Shown piece after piece: positions 1,696 to 29,108 of a stretch of 32,000 bases of DNA. The notes under the pieces are model-generated. The model did not search any database. It worked only from the letters and a program-made list of their open reading frames with translations, and had not been told where the DNA came from. Numbering within the stretch: position 1 is the first letter of the stretch; each line of letters starts with the position of its first letter. A program made the position numbers and the translations under genes. The DNA comes from Pyrobaculum aerophilum str. IM2 (GTDB taxonomy: Archaea; Thermoproteota; Thermoprotei; Thermoproteales; Thermoproteaceae), in the NCBI RefSeq assembly GCF_000007225.1, contig NC_003364.1:2010001-2042000 (forward strand), given 5' to 3'.

Positions 1696-2787
1696 ATGAA
1701 CATAAGGCTTATAATATTACTGGGGCTCGTCTCTCTCTTTGCCGACTGGCTGTATGAAAGCATGCGCGCCGTTGCCCCACAATACTTATACGCGCTGGGC
1801 GCCTCTGCGGCTTTTGTAGGGTTTGTCTTCGGCCTCGGCGACGCCTTGGGCTACGCCGCCCGCTTCATCACAGGCCCGCTCGCAGACAAAAGGGGGGGCT
1901 ACTGGCTGGAGACCTTCCTCGGCTACGGCCTCCAAATCGCCGCGGTGGCAGGCCTAGTGTTTGCCAGAGATGTGTGGCAGGTTGCAGGCTTAGTATTTCT
2001 GGAGAGGTTTAGCAAGGCCCTGCGCACGCCCGCCCGCGACGCCATTATCTCCGCGGCAGGGGGCAAGGGGGCTAGGGGCAGGGCCTTCGGCATCCACGCA
2101 GCATTAGACCAAATAGGCGCTATTCTGGGGGTGTCTATGGCCACTTTAATGCTGTTTTTAAATTATCAGCCTCGCGACGTGTTTTTAGCGGCTTTACTTC
2201 CAGGCGCTACGGCATTGGCAGTGCTCTACGTTGCGTATAAAACAAGCGGCGTAAAGCCCGCAGGAAAGGGCTATAAATTCCTAATGGACAGAAAAGCCGT
2301 GGTATTCGGAATGTCGCAATTTCTCCTCGGCATTTCCATAATTCACATATCGCTGTCCATGTATAGACTCTCTCAAGTGCCGTGGCTTGCCTCGTTGTTA
2401 TACTTAATCGCTATGATTACTGAAATACCGGCGTCTTTAGCGCTGGGATATCTCTACGACAGAAGCCATAAGACGCTCTTCATCGCGCCTTTATTTACAA
2501 CTCTATTAGCTGTGTCTTATATAAGCGGCGGGCTTTATCTCTTTCTCGGAGCTATCCTCTACGCGGTAGTTACCTCTTATGCCGACGTGGTTGCAAAGGC
2601 CGAGGCCGCTAAGCTGGGCGCCGCCTCATCGCTGGGCTTTGTCAACGCTATGTGGGGATTGGGGCTAATGATGGGCGGAGTGTTATACGGCTACTTTACA
2701 GATGTCGGCAATTATTTGACAATAGGCATATTAGCTGCAGCCTCGTCGTCGGCGTCACTTTTATTACTATGGAGGTCCGTTACGTAA
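1696..2787 (+). CDS. MFS-type transporter
   Basis: The 363-aa polytopic membrane ORF carries the MFS-like loop GPLADKRGGYW after TM2. An ATG start lies 10 nt after the previous stop. Confidence 0.75.
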   Translation: MNIRLIILLGLVSLFADWLYESMRAVAPQYLYALGASAAFVGFVFGLGDALGYAARFITGPLADKRGGYWLETFLGYGLQIAAVAGLVFARDVWQVAGLVFLERFSKALRTPARDAIISAAGGKGARGRAFGIHAALDQIGAILGVSMATLMLFLNYQPRDVFLAALLPGATALAVLYVAYKTSGVKPAGKGYKFLMDRKAVVFGMSQFLLGISIIHISLSMYRLSQVPWLASLLYLIAMITEIPASLALGYLYDRSHKTLFIAPLFTTLLAVSYISGGLYLFLGAILYAVVTSYADVVAKAEAAKLGAASSLGFVNAMWGLGLMMGGVLYGYFTDVGNYLTIGILAAASSSASLLLLWRSVT

Positions 2788-3188
2788 TTGAGCTTTACAA
2801 GAACTTGGCCCCAGTCTATGAAGAGCTTTACGGCGAGGAGCAGAGGTTAAAATACTGGCGAATAGCCTCACAAACGGGGGAGCGAGTCGTCGATGTCGGT
2901 TGCGGCACGGGAATAGCCTTTGAGGTGCTAGACGGGTATGTCGTCTGCCTCGACATATCAATTGATATGTTGAAACGCGCTAGGGAGAAAAAAGGCGATC
3001 TGGGGGAATTGATAGTCGCAGATCTCTGGCGTCCGCCGCTTAGAGATAACTCCTTTGACTCCGCCTTATTTTTATCATCTGTTGACAAAAGTTTTTATGG
3101 CCAAGTAATTAATATTTGGCGCGGGGTAGCCCACAAGCTTATTTTTGAATTTCGGGGCGAGTGGCACCTAGTAGAGCAACGCAATTGA
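2769..3188 (+). CDS. Small class I SAM-dependent methyltransferase
   Basis: Motif I VVDVGCGTGIAFEVL is followed by the acidic motif II LDIS. I place the start at internal ATG 2769 (MEVRYVIELY...) because the track's 5' extension (2652-2768) lies inside the MFS gene and reads as non-protein-like. Confidence 0.7.
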   Translation: MEVRYVIELYKNLAPVYEELYGEEQRLKYWRIASQTGERVVDVGCGTGIAFEVLDGYVVCLDISIDMLKRAREKKGDLGELIVADLWRPPLRDNSFDSALFLSSVDKSFYGQVINIWRGVAHKLIFEFRGEWHLVEQRN

Positions 3189-14296: not shown

Positions 14297-15104
14297 ATGG
14301 AAATTAAAAATGGGGTTAGGTTATTGAGGGGCTCGCCCAATACTTTAATAGTGGGGAATTACGTGGTGGATCCAGGCCAGCCCGAGGATAGAGCTGGGGA
14401 AATTCTGTCAATAGCCGGGCGGAGTCCCGTCGTGTTGCTGACTCATTTCCACGCCGATCACTTAACTGCAACGCCAAACGGCGCAGAGGTGTACGCCCCA
14501 TGGGGAGAGGAGTTATTCGTGGCCAGCGTCAGGGCGCGGCTCTTTTTCACGCACGGAGTCTACGTAGAGGGCGCTGTATACAAGGGCTCTGATATACAGT
14601 TAAGCGGAGTAGTGAAGCCGGGCGAAAAAATCGGCCCGTTTGAAGTCGTGGCATTGCCCGGCCACACCTTTGGCCACGTGGGCTATTACACTGAGGGCGT
14701 GTTATACGCAGGCGACGCTCTATTCGGAGAGAAGGTCTTGGAAAAATACGGAGTTCCCTACTTAATGGATGTGGACATGTTCCTCTCTTCCCTAGACAAA
14801 ATTATAGAGTTAGATCCCGAGACGTTGGTAATTGGCCACGGCCCGTTGCGGGTAGCAAGAGGAGAATTAAGGAATTGGTAGAGGCGAATAAAGCCGCAGT
14901 GGAGCGGGCCGTGAAGGCCGTGGAGGCGGCTATGCCGGGGACATCACCTCAATAACTATTAAAGTCTTAAAAGAGACGGGGGGCGAGAGAGGTTGGGAAA
15001 ATGTCTTGCTTACAATGACAACTGTGCGGGCTGTGCTTTCAAAATTATCAAGAGAGGGGTTTATTTACATGGATGAAAACGGCTATTGGGGGAGAAAATC
15101 ATAA
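14297..15104 (+). pseudogene. MBL-fold hydrolase paralog interrupted by two frameshifts
   Basis: Frame A (14297-14881) carries LTHFHADH and ALPGHTFGH and stops at LRNW*. Frame B continues with ...RRIKELVEANKAAVERAVKAVEAAMPG to a stop at 14953-14955. Frame C continues with DITSITIKVLKETGGERGWENVLLTMTTVRAVLSKLSREGFIYMDENGYWGRKS* to a stop at 15102-15104. The three pieces together have the same domain layout as the intact paralog at 11500-12474. Confidence 0.65.
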
Positions 15105-18432: not shown

Positions 18433-18568
18433 ATCACGGGGAGAACTCCTTATTAGGGGCGAGCCGCATTGAGGTGAACAATATAGCAGAATGAGGGCAA
18501 TGTGAACGCGATACACTAAATACGGTTATTAAGAAAACCGCCTTCTTTAAAAAGGCAGTAGATAGAAA

Positions 18569-18579
18569 GACTTAAAAAC
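18569..18579 (+). promoter_or_regulatory. BRE/TATA-like box gacttaaaaac for tRNA-Cys
   Basis: The box is centred about 27 nt upstream of tRNA position 1. Confidence 0.55.
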
Positions 18580-18628
18580 ACGACGGTAAATATAAAGCGA
18601 AGCCCCGGTAGCTCAGTCCGGCAGAGCG
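18570..18628 (+). repeat. Promoter plus 5' tRNA segment, copy 1 (near-identical to 28983-29041)
   Basis: The blocks acttaaaaacacgacgg, aaatata, gcga and gccccggtagctcag are shared with only a few substitutions and one 1-nt indel. Confidence 0.8.
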
Positions 18629-18700
18629 GCGGGCTGCAGACCCGTAGGTCCCGGGTTCAAAGGCGGCTTTGCCGCCGAATCGATCCCGGCCGGGGCTCCA
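18602..18700 (+). tRNA. tRNA-Cys (anticodon GCA) with a roughly 22-nt non-canonical intron in the T-loop; encoded CCA
   Basis: Hand-folded. The acceptor pairs GCCCCGG/CCGGGGC, and the D arm is GCUC-AGUCCGGCA-GAGC. The anticodon arm is GCGGG-CUGCAGA-CCCGU. The T stem CCGGG/CCCGG is interrupted: UUCAA [aggcggctttgccgccgaatcg, about 18661-18682] AU. The discriminator is U73, as expected for Cys. Confidence 0.85.
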
Positions 18701-18819
18701 CTCAATTATCCTTCAACTCTGTTTTAAGACTTAATCGCGCCTTGGAAAATCCGCAGTTTTCACAAGTGCAGCCCTCGGAATAATAATAGGCCGTACTGTG
18801 ATTGTGTTTTAGGCGTTAC

Positions 18820-19158
18820 CTATGAGGCAAAACTTGCCATTAGGTCTAGTTTTTCTCTATCTTCTGGGCTTAAGTTATTGGGATCTACTGAGGATAGTAT
18901 TACTTCTGCCGCGGCCTTGGGATTTGTGAAGTAATAAATGAATAGGCCTATTTTCACGCTTTTTAATCTTCCTTCTCTTTCAAGCACATATACGTGCCAC
19001 TGCACCGCTCCCCAGCTTTTTCTCGTCGTCTTTACTATTTGGGAAAGAGTGGCGGCCCCCATTTGTTCTACTACCTTTAAAATCTCGCGTCTTATGGGGT
19101 CGTCTGCTGTGGCCTTTTTTATTCTCGCGATTATTGGCACAATAGGCGCTGCTAACAA
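18820..19158 (-). CDS. Winged-helix (ArsR/MarR-like) DNA-binding protein
   Basis: DDPIRREILKVVEQMGAATLSQIVKTTRKSWGAVQWHVYVLEREGRLKSV follows the classic wHTH pattern. The only available start is TTG. Confidence 0.7.
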   Translation of the reverse strand: MLAAPIVPIIARIKKATADDPIRREILKVVEQMGAATLSQIVKTTRKSWGAVQWHVYVLEREGRLKSVKIGLFIYYFTNPKAAAEVILSSVDPNNLSPEDREKLDLMASFAS

Positions 19159-19214
19159 CTCCCTCCTGTTGCTGAAGATGTGGTTCAGCCCAGCCGCCGC
19201 GGCTATGCCTGTGG

Positions 19215-19490
19215 CTACGGCGATGACAGGCGCCTCGGGGCGGGTATTGGCTTGGGGGGAGTCGGCGGAGGAGGCTCAACGTAAATCCACCCTGCGATTT
19301 TAATTTGCGCCAACGTGGGGTTGCTACACACAATATTGACAGTGGCGGGGCCTTGGAGCGCCAAAGGCTCTGTCGCGTTACATAGCGGTGGTAGAGATGG
19401 TTTTACAATAACTGTGGAGTTAGGCGGCACTGGTACGGTAAATACCCAGAGGGATAAGGGAGTTAGGAGCAATAAAACAGTATAGTTCAC
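19215..19490 (-). CDS. Small secreted/exported protein with a Pro-rich C-terminus
   Basis: The N-terminal signal-like helix is MNYTVLLLLTPLSLWVF and the C-terminus reads EPPPPTPPKPIPAP. The TATA-like box aaaatataaataac lies about 24 nt upstream of the GTG start. Confidence 0.5.
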   Translation of the reverse strand: MNYTVLLLLTPLSLWVFTVPVPPNSTVIVKPSLPPLCNATEPLALQGPATVNIVCSNPTLAQIKIAGWIYVEPPPPTPPKPIPAPRRLSSP

Positions 19491-19528
19491 AACAATAAAG
19501 TGAGGAGAGTTATTTATATTTTGTGGTG

Positions 19529-19873
19529 TTACTTTCTTTGGGTATAGTTTAATAAATAGTAAAATGACGGAGTTATGTATTTCATTTTTGTTAATTGTAA
19601 TATTTTCGGGGGAAGTTGCTCGGCCAGCTGTCTTATTTTCTCTGTTGCTATATACTTCTTCTCTTTTTTAGATAAATCAAGCGAGGTTTCTTCGTACTCC
19701 ACTAGATAGCCCTCCTCTACTAATTGCCTCACGGCCTCCTCAACAGTAGTGATGGGAATGTCCGTTTTAATTCTCATCTCCTCCTTGGCGATTATAACCA
19801 TAGAATATATTGTATGTATATCTGCGTTTGTCAAGACGGAGGCTACAGAGGCGACCAGTTTTTTAATATCCAC
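19529..19873 (-). CDS. Small wHTH-like protein downstream of the ParA-like gene (partition-adaptor position)
   Basis: The 114-aa ORF contains the segment TVEEAVRQLVEEGYLVEYEE, typical of a winged-helix recognition/wing region. The TATA-like box gtatagtataaatag lies about 24 nt upstream of the GTG start. Confidence 0.55.
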   Translation of the reverse strand: MDIKKLVASVASVLTNADIHTIYSMVIIAKEEMRIKTDIPITTVEEAVRQLVEEGYLVEYEETSLDLSKKEKKYIATEKIRQLAEQLPPKILQLTKMKYITPSFYYLLNYTQRK

Positions 19874-19926
19874 GAGTAGTACTTGTTTCCTCTATTTATA
19901 CTATACGGTGTAAATGCCGTGGTGTC

Positions 19927-20595
19927 CTATTCTATCCACCTGGAGCGGGTAACTCTTTTCAACTCTTGTAGCAAATATTCTGCCAGTTTTGTCACCGGCT
20001 TTGTATAAAATTGCCCCCGTCTATTATAATAGTCTAGAGTGGCTGAAAACGGTATTTTCACAACGGCGCCGGGGTATTCTATTCCCCTTTCGTGTTTATT
20101 TAGAGCAATTATTAACTTTCCGTCGAAAAACTTTTTTATAATAGTTATAGGCTTTGTACAATCTTCACATCCCTCTACCACTAAAACTATTAAATCGGCC
20201 TTGTCTAGGCCGAATGTTTCAATGGGCGTTATCCTTGAGAGTTGATACATGTCAAGTACCACTACATCTATTGAATTTTTCACTATGTTCTTCCTGACGG
20301 CATCTGTGAGGTTTTGAAAGATCTCTTCCCAGTTTTCTATTCTCCATACCGAGGCCGGGTCAATTGCTATAGGTATTACAAACAAGTTTTTCACTCTTGC
20401 GTCTCTATAAGCCTCTATAGTTGGGGTAATATTTTCAATGTTTATTAACGGCGCAGGAAAAAACCTAGACGCCCCTCCTCCTAGATCTATAAGTAGTACA
20501 TTAAGTGGGAGAGCCGCCGATACATTGACGGCGAGCGTGGTCTTGCCAGCGCCGCCTTTACAACTCGTGAAGGCAACAGTCCCTGTTCTTATCAT
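19927..20595 (-). CDS. ParA/MinD/SegA-family P-loop ATPase
   Basis: The deviant Walker A motif CKGGAGKTT is present near the N-terminus, along with Walker B-like VVVLDM. The length is 222 aa. The ATG lies 3 nt after the stop of the frame-corrected upstream gene (tgataaATG). Confidence 0.85.
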   Translation of the reverse strand: MIRTGTVAFTSCKGGAGKTTLAVNVSAALPLNVLLIDLGGGASRFFPAPLINIENITPTIEAYRDARVKNLFVIPIAIDPASVWRIENWEEIFQNLTDAVRKNIVKNSIDVVVLDMYQLSRITPIETFGLDKADLIVLVVEGCEDCTKPITIIKKFFDGKLIIALNKHERGIEYPGAVVKIPFSATLDYYNRRGQFYTKPVTKLAEYLLQELKRVTRSRWIE

Positions 20596-20598
20596 TTA

Positions 20599-21031
20599 TC
20601 ACGGCTGTGCAGCTGGGCGACACTTCTCTGCAAATATAGCCACTAATGAGGCCAGTTTGCTGTTAAAACGCTCGGCGAGTTTTACTAAATCCTCGGGGGA
20701 CATGGACTTGCTCAGGGCCTCTATATGCGGCTCTTCTAATAAGTCTATGGTTTTTAAAAATGACGTCGATCATCCTGTCATTTATTACAAGCGGCGTGGC
20801 CTTGGGGGCGATTAAAAACCTGACAAACGTCCTCTCCTCTGGAGGCAGTTTCGCGATAGTTGATGCCACATAGCGCATAAACTGGCCTACGTCTGTTGCC
20901 TCTTTTGCGACAACTGCAGTTATTTCTTGTAGCGAAGCCCCCTCTGCTGTTCTTGCCTCTTGAACGGCTTCCGCGACTTCTCTTTTAGGTTCCTCTTTTT
21001 TCTCGCCCACGATAGTCCTGAACTTTTCCAT
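20599..21031 (-). pseudogene. Hypothetical protein with an apparent +1 frameshift at a T5A5 run
   Basis: The track ORF (20663-21031) ends ...IDVIFKNHRLIRRAAYRGPEQVHVPRGFSKTRRAF*. The +1 frame from the tttttaaaaa run (20751-20760) reads FLKTIDLLEEPHIEALSKSMSPEDLVKLAERFNSKLASLVAIFAEKCRPAAQP*. That reading is much more protein-like and ends right at the ParA start. Confidence 0.5.
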
Positions 21032-21070
21032 GTGGCTAAGTGTAACTTAATTTTTTAAGTATTGTGTAGT

Positions 21071-21532
21071 TTATGCGGTAATAAGGAATAACGGCGATAA
21101 GTCGGAATATAGCCGTTTATAGAAATTTACTAGCCTCATTGCCGTGTCCCATAAATCATTTAATTCTTTTACAGAGTCAAACAACTCGTCTAACGTGAGG
21201 TGAGCGGCGCGGCCCTCCTTTACGTCTTCTAACCTGGCCCGTAGCTTTTCAATGACAATTTCCGACTCTCGTAGGAGAGTCTCCAGCCTCTCTCTTATTT
21301 CCCTTAAGCCCAGTTCTTCCATCTCGGGAACTCTTGTCGAGAGCCTTTCGACTACTTCAGCCAGCCTTCTGCCCTCGCCCTTGAGATATCCCTCTGCTGA
21401 GTCTACAACTTTTGTTAATGTCTCATAGACAGATGCGTTGAACTGTTGCATTGTGGAAATGTGTTGCTCGGAGTTTTTCAACAGCTCATTGATAAAAACG
21501 GCGTCTCCATATTTCCTCACATATCTCTCCAC
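21071..21532 (-). CDS. Hypothetical alpha-helical/coiled-coil protein (153 aa)
   Basis: The sequence is rich in E/R/L heptad-like stretches (LREIRERLETLLRESEIVIEKLRARLEDVKEG). GTG start, with ctataaaaac upstream. Confidence 0.6.
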   Translation of the reverse strand: MERYVRKYGDAVFINELLKNSEQHISTMQQFNASVYETLTKVVDSAEGYLKGEGRRLAEVVERLSTRVPEMEELGLREIRERLETLLRESEIVIEKLRARLEDVKEGRAAHLTLDELFDSVKELNDLWDTAMRLVNFYKRLYSDLSPLFLITA

Positions 21533-21560
21533 GTGGTTTAATTACAATTTGTTTTTATAG

Positions 21561-23318
21561 TTAGAGGCATGCTTTGTGCGGACTATATTTCTGGATTACA
21601 TCAGAATAGCCGGCGCCGGCAAGGGCTATCTCCAGTTGCCTCAAAGCCAGGCACGGGGTTTTTCTAGCTAGCTTTGTGGCGGAGGCAACTCCGACTTCTA
21701 CTACGATATTAGCACATCTCGCGCCGCATTTTTCATATATCAGCGAGGCATCTCCCACAGCCTCTATGTACTTGTCTAATAAAGCGCCGTAGTCCTCGCC
21801 CAATTCAACGGCAGTTACCAACGCCTGGGCTAATAACTCCCCCGGGACTATATAGGAGTTTTGCACAGTTGCCAACGCCAGTTTTTTTGTAATGGGGCTG
21901 CCCAACCGCAAGGCGGCATCTATATAGTCTTTAAATACCCTTAAATCAGTCCTTCCCCCTTCCGATGCCTCATACAAATAGTTCAAGACCTCTATCCACC
22001 CCCTTTCCCCGACTTCCTCAGCCCGAAATCCGGCGTAGTATTCAAGGCCGCTTTTGAGCGATGGAGGTAGCTCCACGCTGAGTCTCTCCGGAGTTAATAT
22101 CGCTTTAATAATTACATCGGGCAAGGCGCCGTGCACGCACAAGGGCTTAATTTTCCCCAAACAGGGGTTTCCGCCTCTGGCAATGGCGGCTAGGGCCTTA
22201 GCTAAATCGTTGTTGGCCTCATGCGCAATTACATATGCCTTTACTAAATTTCTGAGGCTCACCTCGCTAGGTTTATATCCGCATTGGACGGCGACTTCCT
22301 CCGACGCCTTTGTTAAGGCCTCGTTGTAAAGAGGTCCTAGCTCTCTAGACAACGCCCGTAAATGCCAATGGGGTTTCATTAATTTTTTTAGATCCTCCGC
22401 AGTTTGCAGTGCAAGTATCTTTACGTATTCCTTGTGGGGATCTGGTAACTTATTAATAAGAGATATAAGTTTTTCTAATGTTCTTACTTTAACTTCAACA
22501 GTTTCATAATAAATCGCCAGGCTTGCCAAAGGGGGCGGGAGCCCTCTGCTGTGTAGCGTTTGGATAAAAGCCTTTGCCTTACTGCAACTAGGGGCGTATA
22601 CGGCCTTGGCCAATGCTGTTAGCTTCTCCACGTAAGCCATCTTAGCCTTCTCAACTAAGTTTGCAGGGTGCTCATCGCAGAACTCAAGAGATTTGGCTGC
22701 GCTATATGCGATGTAGTACATTCCCTCACCTAGTTGTGAAATGCGGGACGAGATCTCTTTAACGTAGTCCTCGCCGCAGTAGACGTCACTGTTTTTCGCA
22801 AAAATCTCGCCGGCTATTGACTCCTCTGCCGTTACTACTATATTATCGTAAAGCCGCAACTCCTTCTTACACCTCTCCGCCAAGTCAAAGGGCAAGACGA
22901 TAACTACTGGATAACCGTTTTTTCTCACGTATTCAGCTCTTGCTAAAATTCTATTGCAATTATCCCTCCACAGCGTTGCATATTCAGACCAAATCTCGGG
23001 CTCTGCGTAGAATTGCAACGGCACTGCGTCAAAAACGGCAAATGCCCACTTTGCTCTTTTGGCTATTCTTAAATACTCGGCGAAATTAGAAGTATCAGAG
23101 GCCAAGTCTATCACAGCGCCGCCTTTTTCTAATGCGGAATACGCTATTGTTAACGCCAGCACCGACTTCCCAACTCCGTGTAAGCCCTTTAATAAAACAG
23201 ACTCGCCGCTAGAAAGCCTTTTCTCAAGCTCTTTCATTAACGGAATATTAACAATAGCCACCTCCCGCTCTCCTAGCCTCATCTGCAACTCGCCGCCGCG
23301 GCGGCTGAAAAGATGCAC
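21561..23318 (-). CDS. P-loop NTPase with a large all-helical C-terminal domain (STAND / archaeal-ATPase-like architecture)
   Basis: Walker A is LKGLHGVGKSVLALT and Walker B-like is WAFAVFDAV. These are followed by about 400 aa of helical, repeat-like sequence. The TATA-like box gttaaatagg lies about 25 nt upstream of GTG 23318. Confidence 0.7.
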   Translation of the reverse strand: MHLFSRRGGELQMRLGEREVAIVNIPLMKELEKRLSSGESVLLKGLHGVGKSVLALTIAYSALEKGGAVIDLASDTSNFAEYLRIAKRAKWAFAVFDAVPLQFYAEPEIWSEYATLWRDNCNRILARAEYVRKNGYPVVIVLPFDLAERCKKELRLYDNIVVTAEESIAGEIFAKNSDVYCGEDYVKEISSRISQLGEGMYYIAYSAAKSLEFCDEHPANLVEKAKMAYVEKLTALAKAVYAPSCSKAKAFIQTLHSRGLPPPLASLAIYYETVEVKVRTLEKLISLINKLPDPHKEYVKILALQTAEDLKKLMKPHWHLRALSRELGPLYNEALTKASEEVAVQCGYKPSEVSLRNLVKAYVIAHEANNDLAKALAAIARGGNPCLGKIKPLCVHGALPDVIIKAILTPERLSVELPPSLKSGLEYYAGFRAEEVGERGWIEVLNYLYEASEGGRTDLRVFKDYIDAALRLGSPITKKLALATVQNSYIVPGELLAQALVTAVELGEDYGALLDKYIEAVGDASLIYEKCGARCANIVVEVGVASATKLARKTPCLALRQLEIALAGAGYSDVIQKYSPHKACL

Positions 23319-23392
23319 AAGTTATTATGACGTGGCCTATTTAACTACGGGATTTTAAATCATATATTAAAAAACAAGACCGATAAATTGTT
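23319..23392. promoter_or_regulatory. 74-nt divergent promoter region
   Basis: The A/T boxes ctatttaac (minus-strand gene) and atatattaaaaaac (plus-strand gene) each lie about 25 nt from their respective GTG starts. Confidence 0.5.
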
Positions 23393-24172
23393 GTGTCCAC
23401 CGCATTAGACGCTGGAATTGCCGGTAGCCGTTTTATCCGCTTGTTACTTAAACAGGGAGAGGTGAAGTCAGACGACACGCTGGGGAGGCTTTTCCACTTA
23501 CTTGCGGAGATGGGATATTTCGTAAAGAGGGGCGATAGGTATAAAAGGACAAGTAAAATACCGCCCTCTATATCAAGCAAGCTTTTAGGCTCTGTTTTTG
23601 ACGACATCATTATCCCCTATTTAATAGGAGAGGCCATTAAGCCTAATTTTGAGGCAGTATTTGCGGCAACGGCGTTATTCCAGCCTTACAGAATACGGGC
23701 GGCGAGTAAATTCGGAAGGGGGGCCCTGGCTCTTGTAGCTGGCTGGTTGCCGTGTGGGTTCTCCACTGAGATATCCGCCGCCACTGGGGCCGACTTGGTA
23801 ATACAAGACGAGCATTGGGAAGTTTTGGCGCTTGAGGAGGAGAGGATATCAATCCTCCCAGTTGAGCTAGAGCGCGTTGGAGAGGCCATGGCCGCCTCCG
23901 TATTTGTCAGCTTTGAGGCAGGCCGCCTCGACGAATTGCCAGCGGATAAATATGGCAAGTTTTCCTTCGCTGTAATTTGCCACAGAGCTGTTGACGTCAA
24001 AAAGGCGCGTGAATTAGCCGACAGAGTGTATAGAGTCAACTTCTCAGGGGCGTTGGGAATATTTGCAGATCTCTTGTCAGAGGCAATGGGGCTGGGTAGG
24101 GGCGAGGAGTGCGGGCGGGGCGGCAGGGTCTTGTACAAAGACTCGGAGATCTGCCTCACTGATGTTTCGTAA
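23393..24172 (+). CDS. Hypothetical protein with an N-terminal wHTH-like region and an uncharacterised C-terminal domain
   Basis: The N-terminal segment is wHTH-like: LGRLFHLLAEMGYFVKRGDRYKRT. The remaining roughly 190 aa contain no motif I recognise. The stop overlaps the GTPase start by 11 nt. Confidence 0.6.
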   Translation: MSTALDAGIAGSRFIRLLLKQGEVKSDDTLGRLFHLLAEMGYFVKRGDRYKRTSKIPPSISSKLLGSVFDDIIIPYLIGEAIKPNFEAVFAATALFQPYRIRAASKFGRGALALVAGWLPCGFSTEISAATGADLVIQDEHWEVLALEEERISILPVELERVGEAMAASVFVSFEAGRLDELPADKYGKFSFAVICHRAVDVKKARELADRVYRVNFSGALGIFADLLSEAMGLGRGEECGRGGRVLYKDSEICLTDVS

Positions 24173-24644
24173 GCGCGAGTTGAAGACTATTGTATTCTTG
24201 GGAGTTGGCGGCGTTGGAAAAACGACGTATATCTACAGATTACTGGGGCTGGCCAGAGCTCCTAGAGTCACGAGAAAGCCTGGCGTGTATGAACTGCAGT
24301 ATAGGGGCGTTGAATTGTATATAGTGGATACGCCTGGTCAATATGCGGTTGAAGTCGCCAGGAGATATTATGAGGCAATTAAGACGTTTGGCACTAAGCT
24401 GGATTTAATAGTCTACATGTACAGCGCAGCGGACCCCTTCACTCTCTACTCGTTATTTGACATAGAGCAGTGGGTCTCCAGGTATCCTCCTCATAATAAA
24501 ATACTCATTGGGAACAAGCGGGATTTAGCCGAAGAGCTCGGGTATCTGGTCGAGGGAGACGACGTGGCAATTGCGCTAGGCGCTAAAAGGCTTTACTACA
24601 CCTCGGCTTTAAAAACGACCCGGCTGAGCTTTTACAACACTTAG
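24162..24644 (+). CDS. Ras-superfamily small GTPase
   Basis: All five G motifs are present in order: G1 GVGGVGKT, G2 Thr in VTRKPG, G3 DTPGQ, G4 NKRD and G5 TSALK. The start is set at ATG 24162 (MFRKRELKTIVFLG), because the track's 5' extension reads as low-complexity sequence. Confidence 0.8.
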   Translation: MFRKRELKTIVFLGVGGVGKTTYIYRLLGLARAPRVTRKPGVYELQYRGVELYIVDTPGQYAVEVARRYYEAIKTFGTKLDLIVYMYSAADPFTLYSLFDIEQWVSRYPPHNKILIGNKRDLAEELGYLVEGDDVAIALGAKRLYYTSALKTTRLSFYNT

Positions 24645-24654
24645 TGCAAAATCT

Positions 24655-25596
24655 CTAGAACAGCTGGAGAAGCCACGGGGCCTTGTCTCTTTGCGGCTTA
24701 AGCATTTTTAACATTCTGGCCTCCTTCACGCTTTCCTCCTTCCTCCGCTGAGAGATTTCATCCCCCCTCGGCGGCGCCTTTATTTCGCTGGGCTTTCCGC
24801 CCGCCATATTTACAAATGTAAAGAAACCATCGGCCACTCTCCTCCTGCCTCTGGACCCGAAGGCCTCTACCACAAACCCAATTTCTATACTTGTAGAACC
24901 CACGTGCGTCACGCCCGTTTTGACCTCAACTATGTCGCCGACATAAATAGGCCTTCTGAAGACAATGCTATTGACGCTTGCAGTCACGTAAACAGTGGGG
25001 TAATAGCTGAAGGCCTCTACAAATGTCAACTCGTCGAGTTTAAACAGAAGCTTGCCTCCATATAACAACACTCCGTCTAAGGAATCCTCGGGCATGGCTA
25101 GAAAACGGCTAACTGAGTGCCAATCGGCGTTTACAGCAGGCCCCTCGGCTTTTAAAACGGCGTCGGCCTTGGCCCTCCACTCGTCGAAATATCTGCAAAG
25201 CTCCTCCCAGCCGGAGTCGCAATTGAGGGATTTGCCCACGGGCGTCGGCCTCCCCTCTTGGTTTATTTTGACAAATATCATCCTCCCGGCGGTGGCTAAG
25301 TTCAACTCATCGCCTCTTTTTACATATGACTCAACTAATACGCTGAGGCTGGATCTCCTCACTCCCACGACCCAGCCTCTAAACATGAGCAAGTAGCCGA
25401 GCCTCACAGGGGAGATGAAATGCGTCTTGTCCAAAAACCCCAATACCACGTCCCCCTCTGCGAAATTCATAGCGGCGACGGTGCCCACGTCAGCTAGCCA
25501 CTGTAGCATGTACCCCCCGTATAAAGTGCCGAGTGGGTTTACGTGCCTGTTAGACACAAGCCTGACGGCCTCCACGAGAGTTTCGGAGACGTACAC
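24655..25596 (-). CDS. Acyl-CoA thioesterase with tandem hotdog domains
   Basis: The first domain carries NPLGTLYGGYMLQWLADVGTVAAM. The second domain is LLYGGKLLFKLDELTFVEAF...IVFRRPIYVGDIVE. This layout is typical of Acot7/BFIT-type double hotdog enzymes. Confidence 0.8.
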   Translation of the reverse strand: MYVSETLVEAVRLVSNRHVNPLGTLYGGYMLQWLADVGTVAAMNFAEGDVVLGFLDKTHFISPVRLGYLLMFRGWVVGVRRSSLSVLVESYVKRGDELNLATAGRMIFVKINQEGRPTPVGKSLNCDSGWEELCRYFDEWRAKADAVLKAEGPAVNADWHSVSRFLAMPEDSLDGVLLYGGKLLFKLDELTFVEAFSYYPTVYVTASVNSIVFRRPIYVGDIVEVKTGVTHVGSTSIEIGFVVEAFGSRGRRRVADGFFTFVNMAGGKPSEIKAPPRGDEISQRRKEESVKEARMLKMLKPQRDKAPWLLQLF

Positions 25597-28992: not shown

Positions 28993-29041
28993 ACGACGGA
29001 AAATATAGGGCGAGCCCCGGTAGCTCAGCCCGGTCGGAGCG
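28983..29041 (+). repeat. Promoter plus 5' tRNA segment, copy 2 (near-identical to 18570-18628)
   Basis: See copy 1. The same sequence blocks appear in the same order. Confidence 0.8.
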
Positions 29042-29108
29042 CCCAGGGGCAAAGCCCCGCGTAAGCCTCGTAAGCGGGAGGTCCCGGGTTCGAATCCCGG
29101 CCGGGGCT
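29014..29108 (+). tRNA. tRNA-Thr (anticodon CGU) with a 20-nt non-canonical intron inside the anticodon stem (between positions 29 and 30); CCA not encoded
   Basis: Hand-folded. The acceptor pairs GCCCCGG/CCGGGGC, and the T arm is CCGGG-UUCGAAU-CCCGG. Removing 29045-29064 (aggggcaaagccccgcgtaa) is the only single excision that yields a perfect anticodon arm, CCCGC-CUCGUAA-GCGGG. Confidence 0.8.

What the first reader, a model, noticed from the sequence alone, without database searches (positions are those of the whole stretch)
18701..24654. About 6 kb AT-richer block of uncharacterised genes abutting the 3' end of tRNA-Cys
From the base after tRNA-Cys to the convergent thioesterase gene, every ORF lacks a housekeeping assignment. 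The set comprises two wHTH proteins, a secreted Pro-rich peptide, a ParA-like ATPase, a frameshifted small gene and a coiled-coil protein. It also includes a 585-aa P-loop NTPase, a wHTH-domain protein and a small GTPase. By eye, the 19.5-21.5 kb stretch is clearly more A/T-rich than the flanking core genes. The block also contains several apparent frameshifts. A tRNA-adjacent, compositionally deviant block with partition-like genes is the classic signature of an integrated plasmid or viral element in archaea. However, I see no integrase, no split integrase halves and no direct repeat of the tRNA 3' end, so it may be an old, decaying element or a different kind of accessory locus.
Basis: partly seen in the sequence, partly recalled or inferred. 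Interest (0 to 1): 0.7.

Follow-up and report, generated by a model that had tools for sequence, protein, structure and literature searches.

The report
Conserved Pyrobaculum ParA/NTPase/GTPase cluster, not island
The block beside tRNA-Cys is not an inserted virus or plasmid but an uncharacterised gene cluster that Pyrobaculum species have inherited vertically; its ParA-type ATPase module may help position DNA in archaea whose segregation machinery is still unknown.

Summary
The window is Pyrobaculum aerophilum IM2 (PAE3391-PAE3394a and neighbours). The block is not a discrete integrated element. There is no integrase and no att repeat. No gene has a relative in virus or plasmid collections.

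The same genes, in the same order, lie beside tRNA-Cys in at least eight Pyrobaculum lineages, including P. ferrireducens (collinear on both sides) and P. neutrophilum. Protein identities track the flanking housekeeping genes. Non-synonymous divergence is low while synonymous sites are saturated.

The AT-richness is real but modest. It is confined to four genes (coiled-coil, X, ParA, wHTH) and recurs in their orthologues, so it is not a relic of foreign origin. Distant homologues of the NTPase in another Thermoproteales genus always sit beside a homologue of the small GTPase, so that pair is old chromosomal DNA.

IM2 carries three real frameshifts. One shows that the "Pro-rich peptide" and the first "wHTH" are halves of one gene. 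A sister strain has a 1.7-kb paREP2 insert with a 62-bp tRNA-Cys repeat, so the tRNA is a live attachment site. My best functional guess, an inference only, is a ParA-based positioning machine coupled to an NTPase/GTPase pair.

The parts
18602..18700 (+). tRNA-Cys (GCA) with a 22-nt non-canonical intron in the T-loop (18661-18682); encoded CCA
   Evidence: Rfam RF00005, 31.2 bits; sequence read; orthologous tRNA-Cys genes with introns at other positions
18655..18716 (+). att-like segment (T-loop intron, 3' end of tRNA-Cys and 16 nt beyond). It is single-copy, that is an empty site, in IM2. It is duplicated around a 1.69-kb paREP2a/2b insert in a sister P. aerophilum strain.
   Evidence: blastn overlap, alignment A2, gene calls for L020
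18820..19490 (-). One frameshifted gene: N-terminal signal/TM segment, Pro-rich linker, TM helix and ArsR-type wHTH. It is listed as two ORFs, 19215-19490 and 18820-19158. The frameshift lies at about 19258-19274.
   Evidence: The single 223-aa ORF of P. ferrireducens aligns to two frames of IM2; ArsR/HTH_5 hits are below cutoff; most of the gene (18815-19420) is deleted in sister strain L020
19529..19873 (-). PAE3391, 114-aa winged-helix protein and last gene of the operon; candidate DNA-binding component
   Evidence: Sub-threshold wHTH Pfam hits; best PDB sequence match is AspA of pNOB8, E 0.024, not significant; conserved in every lineage that has the operon
19927..20595 (-). PAE3393, 222-aa ParA/MinD-class ATPase with deviant Walker A (KGGAGKT), Asp37 and Asp115
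   Evidence: Pfam CbiA above cutoff; PHROG ParA-like 2e-10; 75-83% identity across the genus; only the N-terminal P-loop region matches solved MinD/Soj
20599..21031 (-). PAE3394a, 'X': conserved N-terminal basic peptide (MEKFRTIVGEKKEE), variable linker and conserved C-terminal domain. IM2 has a +1 frameshift at 20749, so the listed ORF stops at 20663. In intact orthologues the gene ends 3 nt before the ParA start.
   Evidence: no Pfam or PDB match
21071..21532 (-). 153-aa helical (putative coiled-coil) protein
   Evidence: Only weak ApoLp-III/spectrin-type hits; orthologues; coiled coil not tested directly
21561..23318 (-). 585-aa P-loop NTPase with a STAND/AAA+-like N-terminal domain and a Cys-rich helical C-terminal region; first gene of the operon
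   Evidence: nSTAND3 24.2 bits, below the 27.2 cutoff; AF2 pLDDT 77; no PDB fold hit below E 1e-3, weak matches to Avs4/ORC/NLR; only 20 relatives among 1.84 billion representatives
23319..23392 (.). Divergent promoter region with TATA-like boxes conserved across species, each about 25 nt from its start codon
   Evidence: Alignment A8 of seven species
23393..24172 (+). 259-aa protein: N-terminal wHTH plus Rossmann methyltransferase-like domain; the glycine loop is non-canonical (AGWLPCG)
   Evidence: AF2 pLDDT 80, pTM 0.81; Foldseek PDB top hits are O-methyltransferase family 2, E 7.5e-8; no Pfam hit; 61-81% identity across the genus
24162..24644 (+). Small GTPase (G1 GVGGVGKT, G3 DTPGQ, G4 NKRD). 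IM2 has a 1-nt deletion at 24614 that replaces the last ~14 residues.
   Evidence: Pfam MMR_HSR1, Ras and PduV-EutP above cutoff; frameshift shown; homologue adjacent to distant NTPase homologues
24655..25596 (-). Double hot-dog acyl-CoA thioesterase. It is the conserved right-hand neighbour and travels with the cluster in most species.
   Evidence: Pfam 4HBT 7e-19; synteny
29014..29108 (+). Second tRNA that shares its promoter, first 21 nt and T-arm/acceptor 3' half with tRNA-Cys. In P. neutrophilum, L018 and L002 it directly flanks the thioesterase.

Best explanation
The 18.7-24.65 kb block is a vertically inherited chromosomal gene cluster specific to the genus Pyrobaculum. It is not an integrated plasmid or virus.

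It has two divergently transcribed units that share a conserved 74-bp promoter region:
- Unit (a) is a five-gene operon: STAND-like NTPase, helical protein, X, ParA-class ATPase, wHTH.
- Unit (b) is a two-gene unit: a wHTH/methyltransferase-like protein and a small GTPase.

A third, frameshifted gene for a membrane-anchored ArsR-type wHTH protein lies between the operon and tRNA-Cys.

Shown:
- The gene order and the tRNA-Cys neighbour are ancestral for the sampled genus.
- The genes evolve under purifying selection at rates like their housekeeping neighbours.
- The NTPase/GTPase pairing predates the genus.
- The AT-rich dip is a property of four genes that is re-created in each species.
- The IM2 copy carries three genuine frameshifts in a genome where a flanking core gene is also frameshifted.

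Inferred (about 35% likely): the ParA module works as a three-part ParA positioning or partition machine, analogous to AspA-ParB-ParA of plasmid pNOB8.
- The wHTH protein binds a DNA site.
- X bridges it to ParA and uses its conserved basic N-terminal peptide to trigger ATP hydrolysis by the ParA dimer.
- The helical protein and the NTPase, together with the GTPase, act as scaffold or nucleotide-dependent regulators.

In IM2 the truncation of X probably impairs this module.
For: Identity: the window is P. aerophilum IM2.

Synteny:
- The same order, thioesterase | GTPase<-259 | NTPase->cc->X->ParA->wHTH, is seen in P. neutrophilum, P. ferrireducens (collinear on both flanks), the P. arsenaticum/oguniense group and MAG lineages L018, L002 and L015/16.
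- tRNA-Cys sits next to the wHTH gene in eight lineages.

Vertical descent and selection:
- Identity ranks of cluster genes follow those of flanking genes.
- pN is 0.07-0.27 while pS is saturated at 0.69-0.88. That is comparable to the thioesterase, PPS and PanB genes.
- Absolute GC of ParA follows each host genome (0.38 to 0.53). A GC3 dip in cc/X/ParA/wHTH recurs in P. neutrophilum, L018 and L017.

Older NTPase/GTPase pair: 14 metagenome contigs from a related genus carry a ~640-aa NTPase homologue. In the 12 that extend beyond the NTPase gene, a GTPase homologue lies next to it (E about 1e-40, 42% identity). A Bmp/ABC transporter lies nearby, as in IM2.

No mobile-element signs:
- No integrase or att repeat.
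- No relatives in IMG/VR, phage or plasmid collections.

Mechanism:
- ParA has an intact deviant Walker A and Pfam CbiA above cutoff.
- X has a conserved N-terminal peptide, a variable linker and a conserved domain, and ends 3 nt before ParA.
- The wHTH protein's best PDB match is AspA.
- TATA-like boxes are conserved across species.
- The literature says SegB is absent from Pyrobaculum (PMC12139799).
Against: - The cluster is confined to one genus. It is absent or reduced at this locus in two MAG lineages (L003, L004). It sits in a rearranged position without the 259-aa and GTPase genes in L014.
- ParA or its neighbours are broken independently in L020, L024, L015/16 and IM2. This argues against an essential function and is typical of accessory or once-selfish modules.
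- ParA plus a wHTH protein next to a tRNA is also what an old plasmid partition cassette would look like.
- The AspA similarity is not significant (E 0.024 for the single sequence, 0.26 for the profile).
- X has no detectable homologue of known function.
- No centromere-like repeats were found.
- The NTPase's weak STAND affinities would also suit a conflict or defence system.
- Some disruptions in MAGs and draft assemblies may be assembly errors.
Confidence: 0.7

Rival explanations
1. Ancient, domesticated integration. A plasmid-type partition cassette (helical protein, X, ParA, wHTH) integrated at tRNA-Cys in the ancestor of the sampled Pyrobaculum species. It fused to the resident NTPase operon and has since been kept, or slowly lost, as host DNA.
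For: - These four genes are the Pyrobaculum-specific addition. The related genus has only the NTPase and GTPase.
- They abut tRNA-Cys in eight lineages.
- They carry the GC3 dip.
- ParA plus a wHTH protein is the typical content of archaeal plasmid partition loci.
- The module is repeatedly inactivated.
- tRNA-Cys is demonstrably an attachment site in a sister strain.
Against: - No integrase remnant, no att remnant and no plasmid or virus homologues were found.
- Synonymous sites are saturated between species, so the GC3 dip cannot be a preserved foreign signature.
- ParA (pN about 0.10) and X (pN 0.07-0.14) are as constrained as the CoA-biosynthesis genes.
- The orientation of the tRNA relative to the operon varies.
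Confidence: 0.2
2. Conflict or defence system. The STAND-like NTPase is a sensor or switch, the GTPase and methyltransferase-like protein are partners, and the ParA module is an associated effector or regulator.
For: - Pfam nSTAND3 hits to the family are sub-threshold for IM2 and above threshold for the distant member P0045 (28.4 against 27.2).
- Weak fold matches to Avs4, AVAST5 and NLR proteins.
- Narrow distribution and sporadic loss.
- The sequence is moderately fast-evolving: 49-63% identity against 75-83% for ParA.
Against: - No PADLOC model matches convincingly; the best is mad8 at 7.7e-5, on the P-loop region only.
- No nuclease, protease, TIR, Sir2 or other effector domain is present.
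- The locus is stably syntenic rather than sitting in a variable defence island.
- There is one copy per locus, with purifying selection like housekeeping genes.
Confidence: 0.12
3. One reading: a relatively recent, now decaying, integrated plasmid or provirus occupying 18.7-24.65 kb between tRNA-Cys and the thioesterase.
For: The block is tRNA-adjacent, contains ParA-like and wHTH genes, is 5 GC points below the rest of the window and has three frameshifts in IM2.
Against: - The whole block is collinear in P. ferrireducens, P. neutrophilum and other lineages.
- There is no integrase, att repeat or virus/plasmid homologue.
- The NTPase/GTPase pair is conserved in another genus.
- Frameshifts also occur in flanking core genes.
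Confidence: 0.03

Closest known systems
pNOB8 AspA-ParB-ParA archaeal plasmid partition system (Sulfolobus)
   Same: It combines a small ParA-class Walker ATPase, a small winged-helix DNA-binding protein and a third protein that could act as adaptor, all in one operon. The wHTH protein's best, though non-significant, PDB match is AspA.
   Different: - Gene order is different.
- X has no similarity to ParB; no ParB/Srx or CenpA-like domain is detected.
- ParA is too divergent to hit any solved ParA beyond the P-loop region.
- The cluster is chromosomal and genus-wide.
- It has two extra genes (NTPase, helical protein).
- No palindromic centromere was found.
SegAB chromosome segregation system of Sulfolobaceae
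   Same: A chromosomal ParA-type ATPase is followed by a ~110-aa DNA-binding partner. In both, the N-terminal peptide of a partner protein is the expected ATPase activator.
   Different: The wHTH protein lacks the SegB C-terminal signature and would be a winged helix rather than a ribbon-helix-helix (my recollection of the SegB fold; no call tested it). The literature reports SegB as absent from Pyrobaculum (PMC12139799). No solved structure matches ParA at E<0.01; SegA was not compared directly.
STAND / AAA+ NTPases (Pfam nSTAND3, AAA_16; Avs-type and NLR-type proteins)
   Same: An N-terminal P-loop domain is followed by a long helical region. There are weak profile and fold matches.
   Different: - Pfam scores are below the cutoff for the IM2 protein.
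- No fold match reaches E<1e-3.
- There is no effector domain.
- The family has about 20 representatives worldwide.
- Its conserved partner is a small GTPase.
tRNA-targeted integrative elements of Crenarchaeota (SSV-type and pNOB8-type integrase elements)
   Same: The block lies next to the 3' end of a tRNA gene. In a sister strain the same tRNA-Cys 3' end is duplicated (62 bp) around an insert.
   Different: The block itself has no integrase, no att duplication, no mobile-element genes and no presence/absence polymorphism among close relatives. The real insert is a 1.7-kb paREP2 element, which is absent from IM2.

Membership tests
Integrated plasmid/provirus at a tRNA gene | Integrase (tyrosine or serine recombinase), intact or split | tested here: not met
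   Pfam, NCBIfam, PHROGs and PADLOC scans of every ORF in the block found none
Integrated plasmid/provirus at a tRNA gene | Direct repeat of the tRNA 3' part (attL/attR) bounding the element | tested here: not met
   The 19-nt 3' end allowing 3 mismatches matches only once. The repeat search finds only the paralogous tRNA at 29 kb.
Integrated plasmid/provirus at a tRNA gene | Presence/absence polymorphism with an empty site in related genomes | tested here: not met
   The block is collinear in a second P. aerophilum strain, P. ferrireducens, P. neutrophilum and other lineages. It is only partly lost or rearranged in L003, L004, L014 and L015/16.
Integrated plasmid/provirus at a tRNA gene | Homologues in viruses or plasmids | tested here: not met
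   IMG/VR scans with five protein families, tblastn and blastn against phages and plasmids, and BFVD fold search gave only generic P-loop matches
Integrated plasmid/provirus at a tRNA gene | Composition deviating from the host because of foreign origin | tested here: inconclusive
   GC3 is lower in four genes. The same relative dip occurs in orthologues, absolute GC tracks each genome and synonymous sites are saturated.
ParA/MinD (deviant Walker A, SIMIBI) ATPases | Signature xKGGxxGK[ST] Walker A with Walker A' and Walker B aspartates; family profile match | tested here: met
   CKGGAGKTT, D37 and D115 are invariant in alignment A5. Pfam CbiA scores 30.1 against a 25.4 cutoff. PHROG ParA-like scores 2e-10.
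ParA/MinD (deviant Walker A, SIMIBI) ATPases | Partner-stimulated ATPase activity and nucleotide-dependent dimerisation | not testable with these tools
   Needs biochemistry. The architecture of X is only suggestive.
pNOB8-type AspA-ParB-ParA partition system | AspA-family winged-helix centromere binder | tested here: inconclusive
   AspA is the best PDB sequence hit, but at E 0.024 for the single sequence and 0.26 for the profile
pNOB8-type AspA-ParB-ParA partition system | ParB adaptor with recognisable ParB N-terminal and CenpA-like C-terminal domains | tested here: not met
   X has no meaningful Pfam hit (only a low-complexity proline-run match) and no PDB hit at all, even at E 5
SegAB | SegB C-terminal signature motif (K/R-D/N-P-K/R-I-G/T-V/L-WS...) next to SegA | tested here: not met
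   The motif given in PMC12139799 is absent from the 114-aa sequence and its orthologues. The paper states that SegB is absent from Pyrobaculum.
STAND NTPases (nSTAND3) | Profile match above the curated cutoff; NTPase, helical/winged-helix and repeat architecture | tested here: inconclusive
   IM2 protein scores 24.2 bits against 27.2. Distant family member P0045 scores 28.4. Fold matches to Avs4, NLR and ORC are only E 1.6e-3 or weaker, with TM about 0.2.
Class I SAM-dependent methyltransferases (O-methyltransferase family 2 architecture) | Rossmann methyltransferase fold with N-terminal winged-helix domain | tested here: met
   AF2 model has pLDDT 80. The Foldseek PDB top 11 hits are such enzymes, E 7.5e-8 to 1e-5, probability 1.0, TM 0.40-0.51.
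Class I SAM-dependent methyltransferases (O-methyltransferase family 2 architecture) | Motif I GxGxG SAM-binding loop and family profile match | tested here: not met
   The loop after strand 1 reads AGWLPCGFS and is invariant. The acidic residue after strand 2 (D139) is conserved. There are no Pfam or NCBIfam hits.
Small (Ras-like/TRAFAC) GTPases | G1 GxxxxGK[ST], G3 DxxG, G4 NKxD motifs; family profile match | tested here: met
   GVGGVGKT, DTPGQ and NKRD are present. MMR_HSR1 scores 33.1 against 21.9 and Ras 25.4 against 21.6. The subfamily is unresolved: the closest solved sequences are FeoB G-domains, E 4e-5.

The most novel reading that the evidence does not exclude
The five-gene operon (STAND-like NTPase, helical protein, X, ParA, wHTH), together with the divergent methyltransferase-like/small-GTPase pair, is a previously undescribed ParA-based chromosome-segregation or cell-cycle positioning system of Pyrobaculum. 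These are rod-shaped archaea that lack SegB, ParB, FtsZ and Cdv. In this reading the system uses orphan partner proteins and is controlled by an ancient Thermoproteales NTPase/GTPase switch pair.
Probability: 0.15. Interest if true: 0.75.

Novelty: new variant of a known kind. Interest (0 to 1): 0.4.

Why it matters
As a putative integrated element the finding is negative. That is useful, because it shows that tRNA adjacency plus a local AT-rich dip is not enough to call an island in Pyrobaculum.

What remains is a compact cluster of seven genes conserved across a genus. None is characterised, and no paper in the searchable library mentions them.

The cluster pairs a highly divergent ParA ATPase with orphan partners and with an NTPase/small-GTPase pair that is conserved across genera. 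Thermoproteales have no known chromosome-segregation or division machinery: SegB is absent (PMC12139799), and Cdv is absent with the division mechanism unknown (PMC5840170). The cluster is therefore a concrete, testable candidate, although its sporadic loss argues that it is not essential.

The 62-bp tRNA-Cys duplication around a paREP2 insert in a sister strain also gives a defined attachment site for these poorly understood Pyrobaculum repeat elements.

Tried and rejected
- ARAGORN missed tRNA-Cys because of its T-loop intron. Rfam was needed.
- A search for a partial tRNA-Cys copy or any bounding repeat found only the paralogous tRNA at 29 kb.
- PHROGs and PADLOC gave only generic P-loop or wHTH hits.
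- PDB sequence searches gave nothing for ParA as a single sequence and nothing for X. The 259-aa profile gave only a chance hit.
- IMG/VR scans with ParA, X, wHTH and the 259-aa protein found nothing. The NTPase gave two 22%-identity P-loop matches (L021, L022), which I did not pursue.
- blastn of the whole block against plasmids matched only 36-38 nt within parA/soj genes.
- Codon-usage log-likelihood did not separate block genes from flanks.
- The Rfam low-threshold scan of the block found no small RNA.
- I considered the 606-bp segment 18815-19420 to be an IM2-specific insertion. I rejected that because P. ferrireducens has the orthologous gene, so it is a deletion in the sister strain.
- I considered frameshifts as evidence of island decay. 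I down-weighted that because single-base indels between the two P. aerophilum strains are just as frequent in the left flank, and a flanking Lactamase_B-fold gene is broken in IM2.
- Look-up of the P. islandicum 259-aa homologue's context failed because it is not on record.
- No centromere-like repeats were evident in the intergenic regions.

Full report
**Source and observation**

Exact protein look-ups identify the window as Pyrobaculum aerophilum str. IM2. The genes include PAE3391, PAE3393, PAE3394a and AAL64886-AAL64889. Independent assemblies of the same strain match the window at 99.97% identity.

tRNA-Cys(GCA) is real at 18602-18700 (+). Rfam detects it. ARAGORN does not, because a 22-nt intron interrupts the T-loop (sequence).

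- an ArsR-like wHTH ORF and a Pro-rich ORF;
- a 114-aa wHTH protein;
- a 222-aa ParA-class ATPase (Pfam CbiA above cutoff);
- a 122-aa ORF;
- a 153-aa helical protein;
- a 585-aa P-loop NTPase (nSTAND3/AAA_16, below cutoff);
- a 259-aa protein with no family hit;
- a small GTPase (true start at 24162);
- the convergent double hot-dog thioesterase.

No integrase was found by Pfam, NCBIfam, PHROGs or PADLOC. No second copy of the tRNA-Cys 3' end exists in the window.

**Composition**

The block is 46.3% GC against 51.2% for the rest of the window. The minimum is 38.7% at 19.5-20.5 kb. However, 5.8% of equal-sized windows are as low or lower, and codon-usage likelihood does not separate the block from its flanks.

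The GC3 deficit is concentrated in four genes: helical protein, X, ParA and wHTH. The same four orthologues show the same relative dip in P. neutrophilum, L018 and L017. Meanwhile their absolute GC follows each host genome, with ParA ranging from 0.38 to 0.53.

Synonymous sites between species are saturated, with pS of 0.69-0.88. A foreign compositional signature could not have survived that much change. The dip must therefore be regenerated in each lineage, for example by weak codon selection.

The same order was found using the thioesterase, the NTPase, ParA and the 259-aa protein as anchors: thioesterase | GTPase<-259 | NTPase->helical->X->ParA->wHTH. It occurs in:
- the complete genome of P. 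neutrophilum;
- P. ferrireducens, collinear on both sides, with PPDK on the left and the thioesterase plus CoA-biosynthesis genes on the right;
- the P. arsenaticum/oguniense group, which lacks the GTPase;
- a second P. aerophilum strain;
- MAG lineages L018, L002 and L015/16.

tRNA-Cys lies directly beside the wHTH gene in eight lineages. It occurs in either orientation and with introns at different positions. The tRNA adjacency is therefore ancestral and is not a mark of a recent event.

Identity to IM2 ranks the genomes in the same order for cluster genes and for flanking genes. Non-synonymous divergence is similar too. For the IM2-P. ferrireducens pair, ParA is 0.098, X 0.074 and the 259-aa protein 0.104, against 0.135 for the thioesterase and 0.094 for PanB. 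These are functional, vertically inherited genes.

There are exceptions:
- L014 has only the five-gene operon, in a rearranged neighbourhood.
- L003 keeps only the wHTH gene next to the thioesterase, and L004 keeps only the 259-aa gene.
- L015/16 lost the helical protein, X and half of ParA.
- ParA is broken in L020 and L024.

The cluster is therefore dispensable in some lineages.

**An older core**

The NTPase family is tiny. It has ten 90% clusters, all from Pyrobaculum, and 20 hits among 1.84 billion representatives.

Its distant full-length relatives (~640 aa) were located on 14 hot-spring metagenome contigs of 55-58% GC. In the 12 that extend beyond the NTPase gene, the adjacent convergent gene is a homologue of the small GTPase. 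It overlaps the NTPase gene by 4 nt in most of them, with HMM E about 1e-40 and 42% identity. No ParA, X, helical, wHTH or 259-aa homologues are present.

The neighbours there are ordinary chromosomal genes, including a Bmp/ABC transporter that also lies a few kilobases from the cluster in IM2. The NTPase/GTPase pairing thus predates the genus. The right half of the supposed island is old chromosomal DNA.

**No link to mobile elements**

- IMG/VR scans with profiles of ParA, X, wHTH and the 259-aa protein found nothing. The NTPase gave only two 22% P-loop matches.
- tblastn and blastn against phage and plasmid collections gave nothing beyond 36-38 nt within parA/soj genes.
- Fold search of the NTPase model against viral structures gave only generic AAA+/NLR hits.

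**Frameshifts**

Three frameshifts are real in IM2.

1. P. ferrireducens encodes one 223-aa protein made of a signal/TM segment, a Pro-rich linker, a TM helix and an ArsR-type wHTH. It aligns to two reading frames of IM2 with a shift near 19258-19274. The "secreted peptide" and the first "wHTH protein" are therefore one broken gene.
2. X carries an extra base at 20749 that replaces its conserved C-terminal 50 residues.
3. The GTPase lacks one base at 24614, which changes its last ~14 residues.

The same sequences occur in independent assemblies. Single-base indels between the two P. aerophilum strains are equally common in the left flank. A flanking Lactamase_B-fold gene (14297-15101) is also frameshifted in IM2. 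The frameshifts are therefore weak evidence for island decay.

**What the proteins look like**

- *ParA.* It has an intact deviant Walker A (KGGAGKT) plus invariant D37 and D115. It is so divergent that only its first ~100 residues match solved MinD/Soj proteins.
- *X.* It has an invariant N-terminal basic peptide (MEKFRTIVGEKKEE), a variable low-complexity linker and a conserved ~95-residue domain. In intact orthologues its stop lies 3 nt before the ParA start. This is the architecture expected of a ParA-activating adaptor. It has no detectable homologue.
- *The 114-aa protein.* It gives only sub-threshold winged-helix hits. Its best PDB match is AspA, the centromere binder of plasmid pNOB8, at a non-significant E of 0.024.
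- *The NTPase.* The model (pLDDT 77) has a P-loop domain and a long helical region. There is no fold match below E 1e-3, and the weak matches are to Avs4, ORC and NLR proteins.
- *The 259-aa protein.* The model (pLDDT 80, pTM 0.81) is an N-terminal winged helix plus a Rossmann methyltransferase fold, resembling family-2 O-methyltransferases (E 7.5e-8). Its glycine loop is non-canonical, AGWLPCG.
- *The shared promoter.* The 74-bp region between the two units has TATA-like boxes conserved across seven species, each about 25 nt from its start codon.

**Interpretation**

Shown: the block is a conserved, vertically inherited, genus-specific cluster, not an integrated element.

Inferred: the ParA module most likely works as a ParA-type positioning or partition machine. 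The wHTH protein would bind DNA, X would act as adaptor and activator, and ParA would be the motor. The helical protein and the NTPase/GTPase pair would serve as scaffold or regulators.

The literature states that SegB is absent from Pyrobaculum (PMC12139799). It also states that Thermoproteales lack Cdv genes and that their division mechanism is unidentified (PMC5840170). That makes such a role conceivable. Repeated inactivation argues against an essential function.

The rivals are:
- ancient domestication of a plasmid partition cassette at tRNA-Cys;
- a STAND-based conflict system;

No paper in the library mentions these genes.

**Side observation**

In the sister P. aerophilum strain (NMUE01000016), a 1.69-kb segment carrying paREP2a and paREP2b genes is inserted at tRNA-Cys. 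It is flanked by a 62-bp direct repeat equal to window 18655-18716. paREP2b has been called a putative transposon (PMC3558965). The tRNA-Cys 3' end is thus a genuine attachment site, which is empty in IM2. The same strain has lost 18815-19420 and 146 bp of ParA.

Noticed in passing
window 18655-18716; L020 10970-11031 and 12662-12723: A sister P. aerophilum strain carries a 1.69-kb paREP2a/paREP2b insert at tRNA-Cys. It is flanked by a 62-bp direct repeat covering the T-loop intron, the tRNA 3' end and 16 nt beyond. IM2 has the empty site. No integrase lies inside the insert.
   Followed up: partly
L026-L039 (e.g. L038 8001-9935 and 9932-10405): Distant ~640-aa homologues of the NTPase occur on hot-spring metagenome contigs (GC 55-58%). 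Wherever the contig extends past the gene, it is followed by a convergent homologue of the small GTPase (42% identity). No ParA module or 259-aa gene is present, so NTPase plus GTPase is an older conserved pair.
   Followed up: partly
window 29014-29108 and 18567-18621: A second tRNA shares a 39-nt upstream promoter segment (85%), its first 21 nt and its T-arm/acceptor 3' half with tRNA-Cys. In P. neutrophilum, L018 and L002 it directly flanks the thioesterase, so two tRNAs with near-identical ends bracket the cluster. ARAGORN calls it Leu(CAA) here but Thr(UGU) for the L002 orthologue, so the anticodon call is unreliable because of multiple introns.
   Followed up: partly
window 18661-18682; L002, L004, L018, L019, L023, L025 tRNA-Cys genes: The intron position in tRNA-Cys differs between species: T-loop in P. 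aerophilum, D-arm in L002, L004 and L023, anticodon region in L018 and P. neutrophilum, and several introns in P. ferrireducens. The orientation of the gene relative to the operon also flips between lineages.
   Followed up: partly
window 14297-15101: The Lactamase_B-fold gene left of PPDK is interrupted by two frameshifts in IM2 (three reading frames). It is an intact 269-aa ORF in the sister strain.
   Followed up: partly
window 18815-19420 and 19987-20132: Relative to IM2, the sister strain has a 606-bp deletion that removes most of the membrane-anchored wHTH gene. It also has a 146-bp deletion plus 5-bp and 6-bp deletions inside ParA.
   Followed up: yes
L019 4734-4790, L018 4337-4394, L025 17122-17178, L023 16053-16108: The H/ACA-like Pyrobaculum sRNA 204 (RF02802) lies between the ribosomal-protein cluster and the second tRNA in related genomes. 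No match to it was found in the window.
   Followed up: no
window 1696-2787 and 2652-3188: Two same-strand ORFs overlap by 136 nt: an MFS transporter and a methyltransferase-domain ORF. The overlap could reflect a wrong start or another frameshift.
   Followed up: no
window 21561-23318 (alignment A1): The NTPase has about a dozen invariant cysteines spread along its helical region. They could form disulfides or a metal site. This is unexplained.
   Followed up: no
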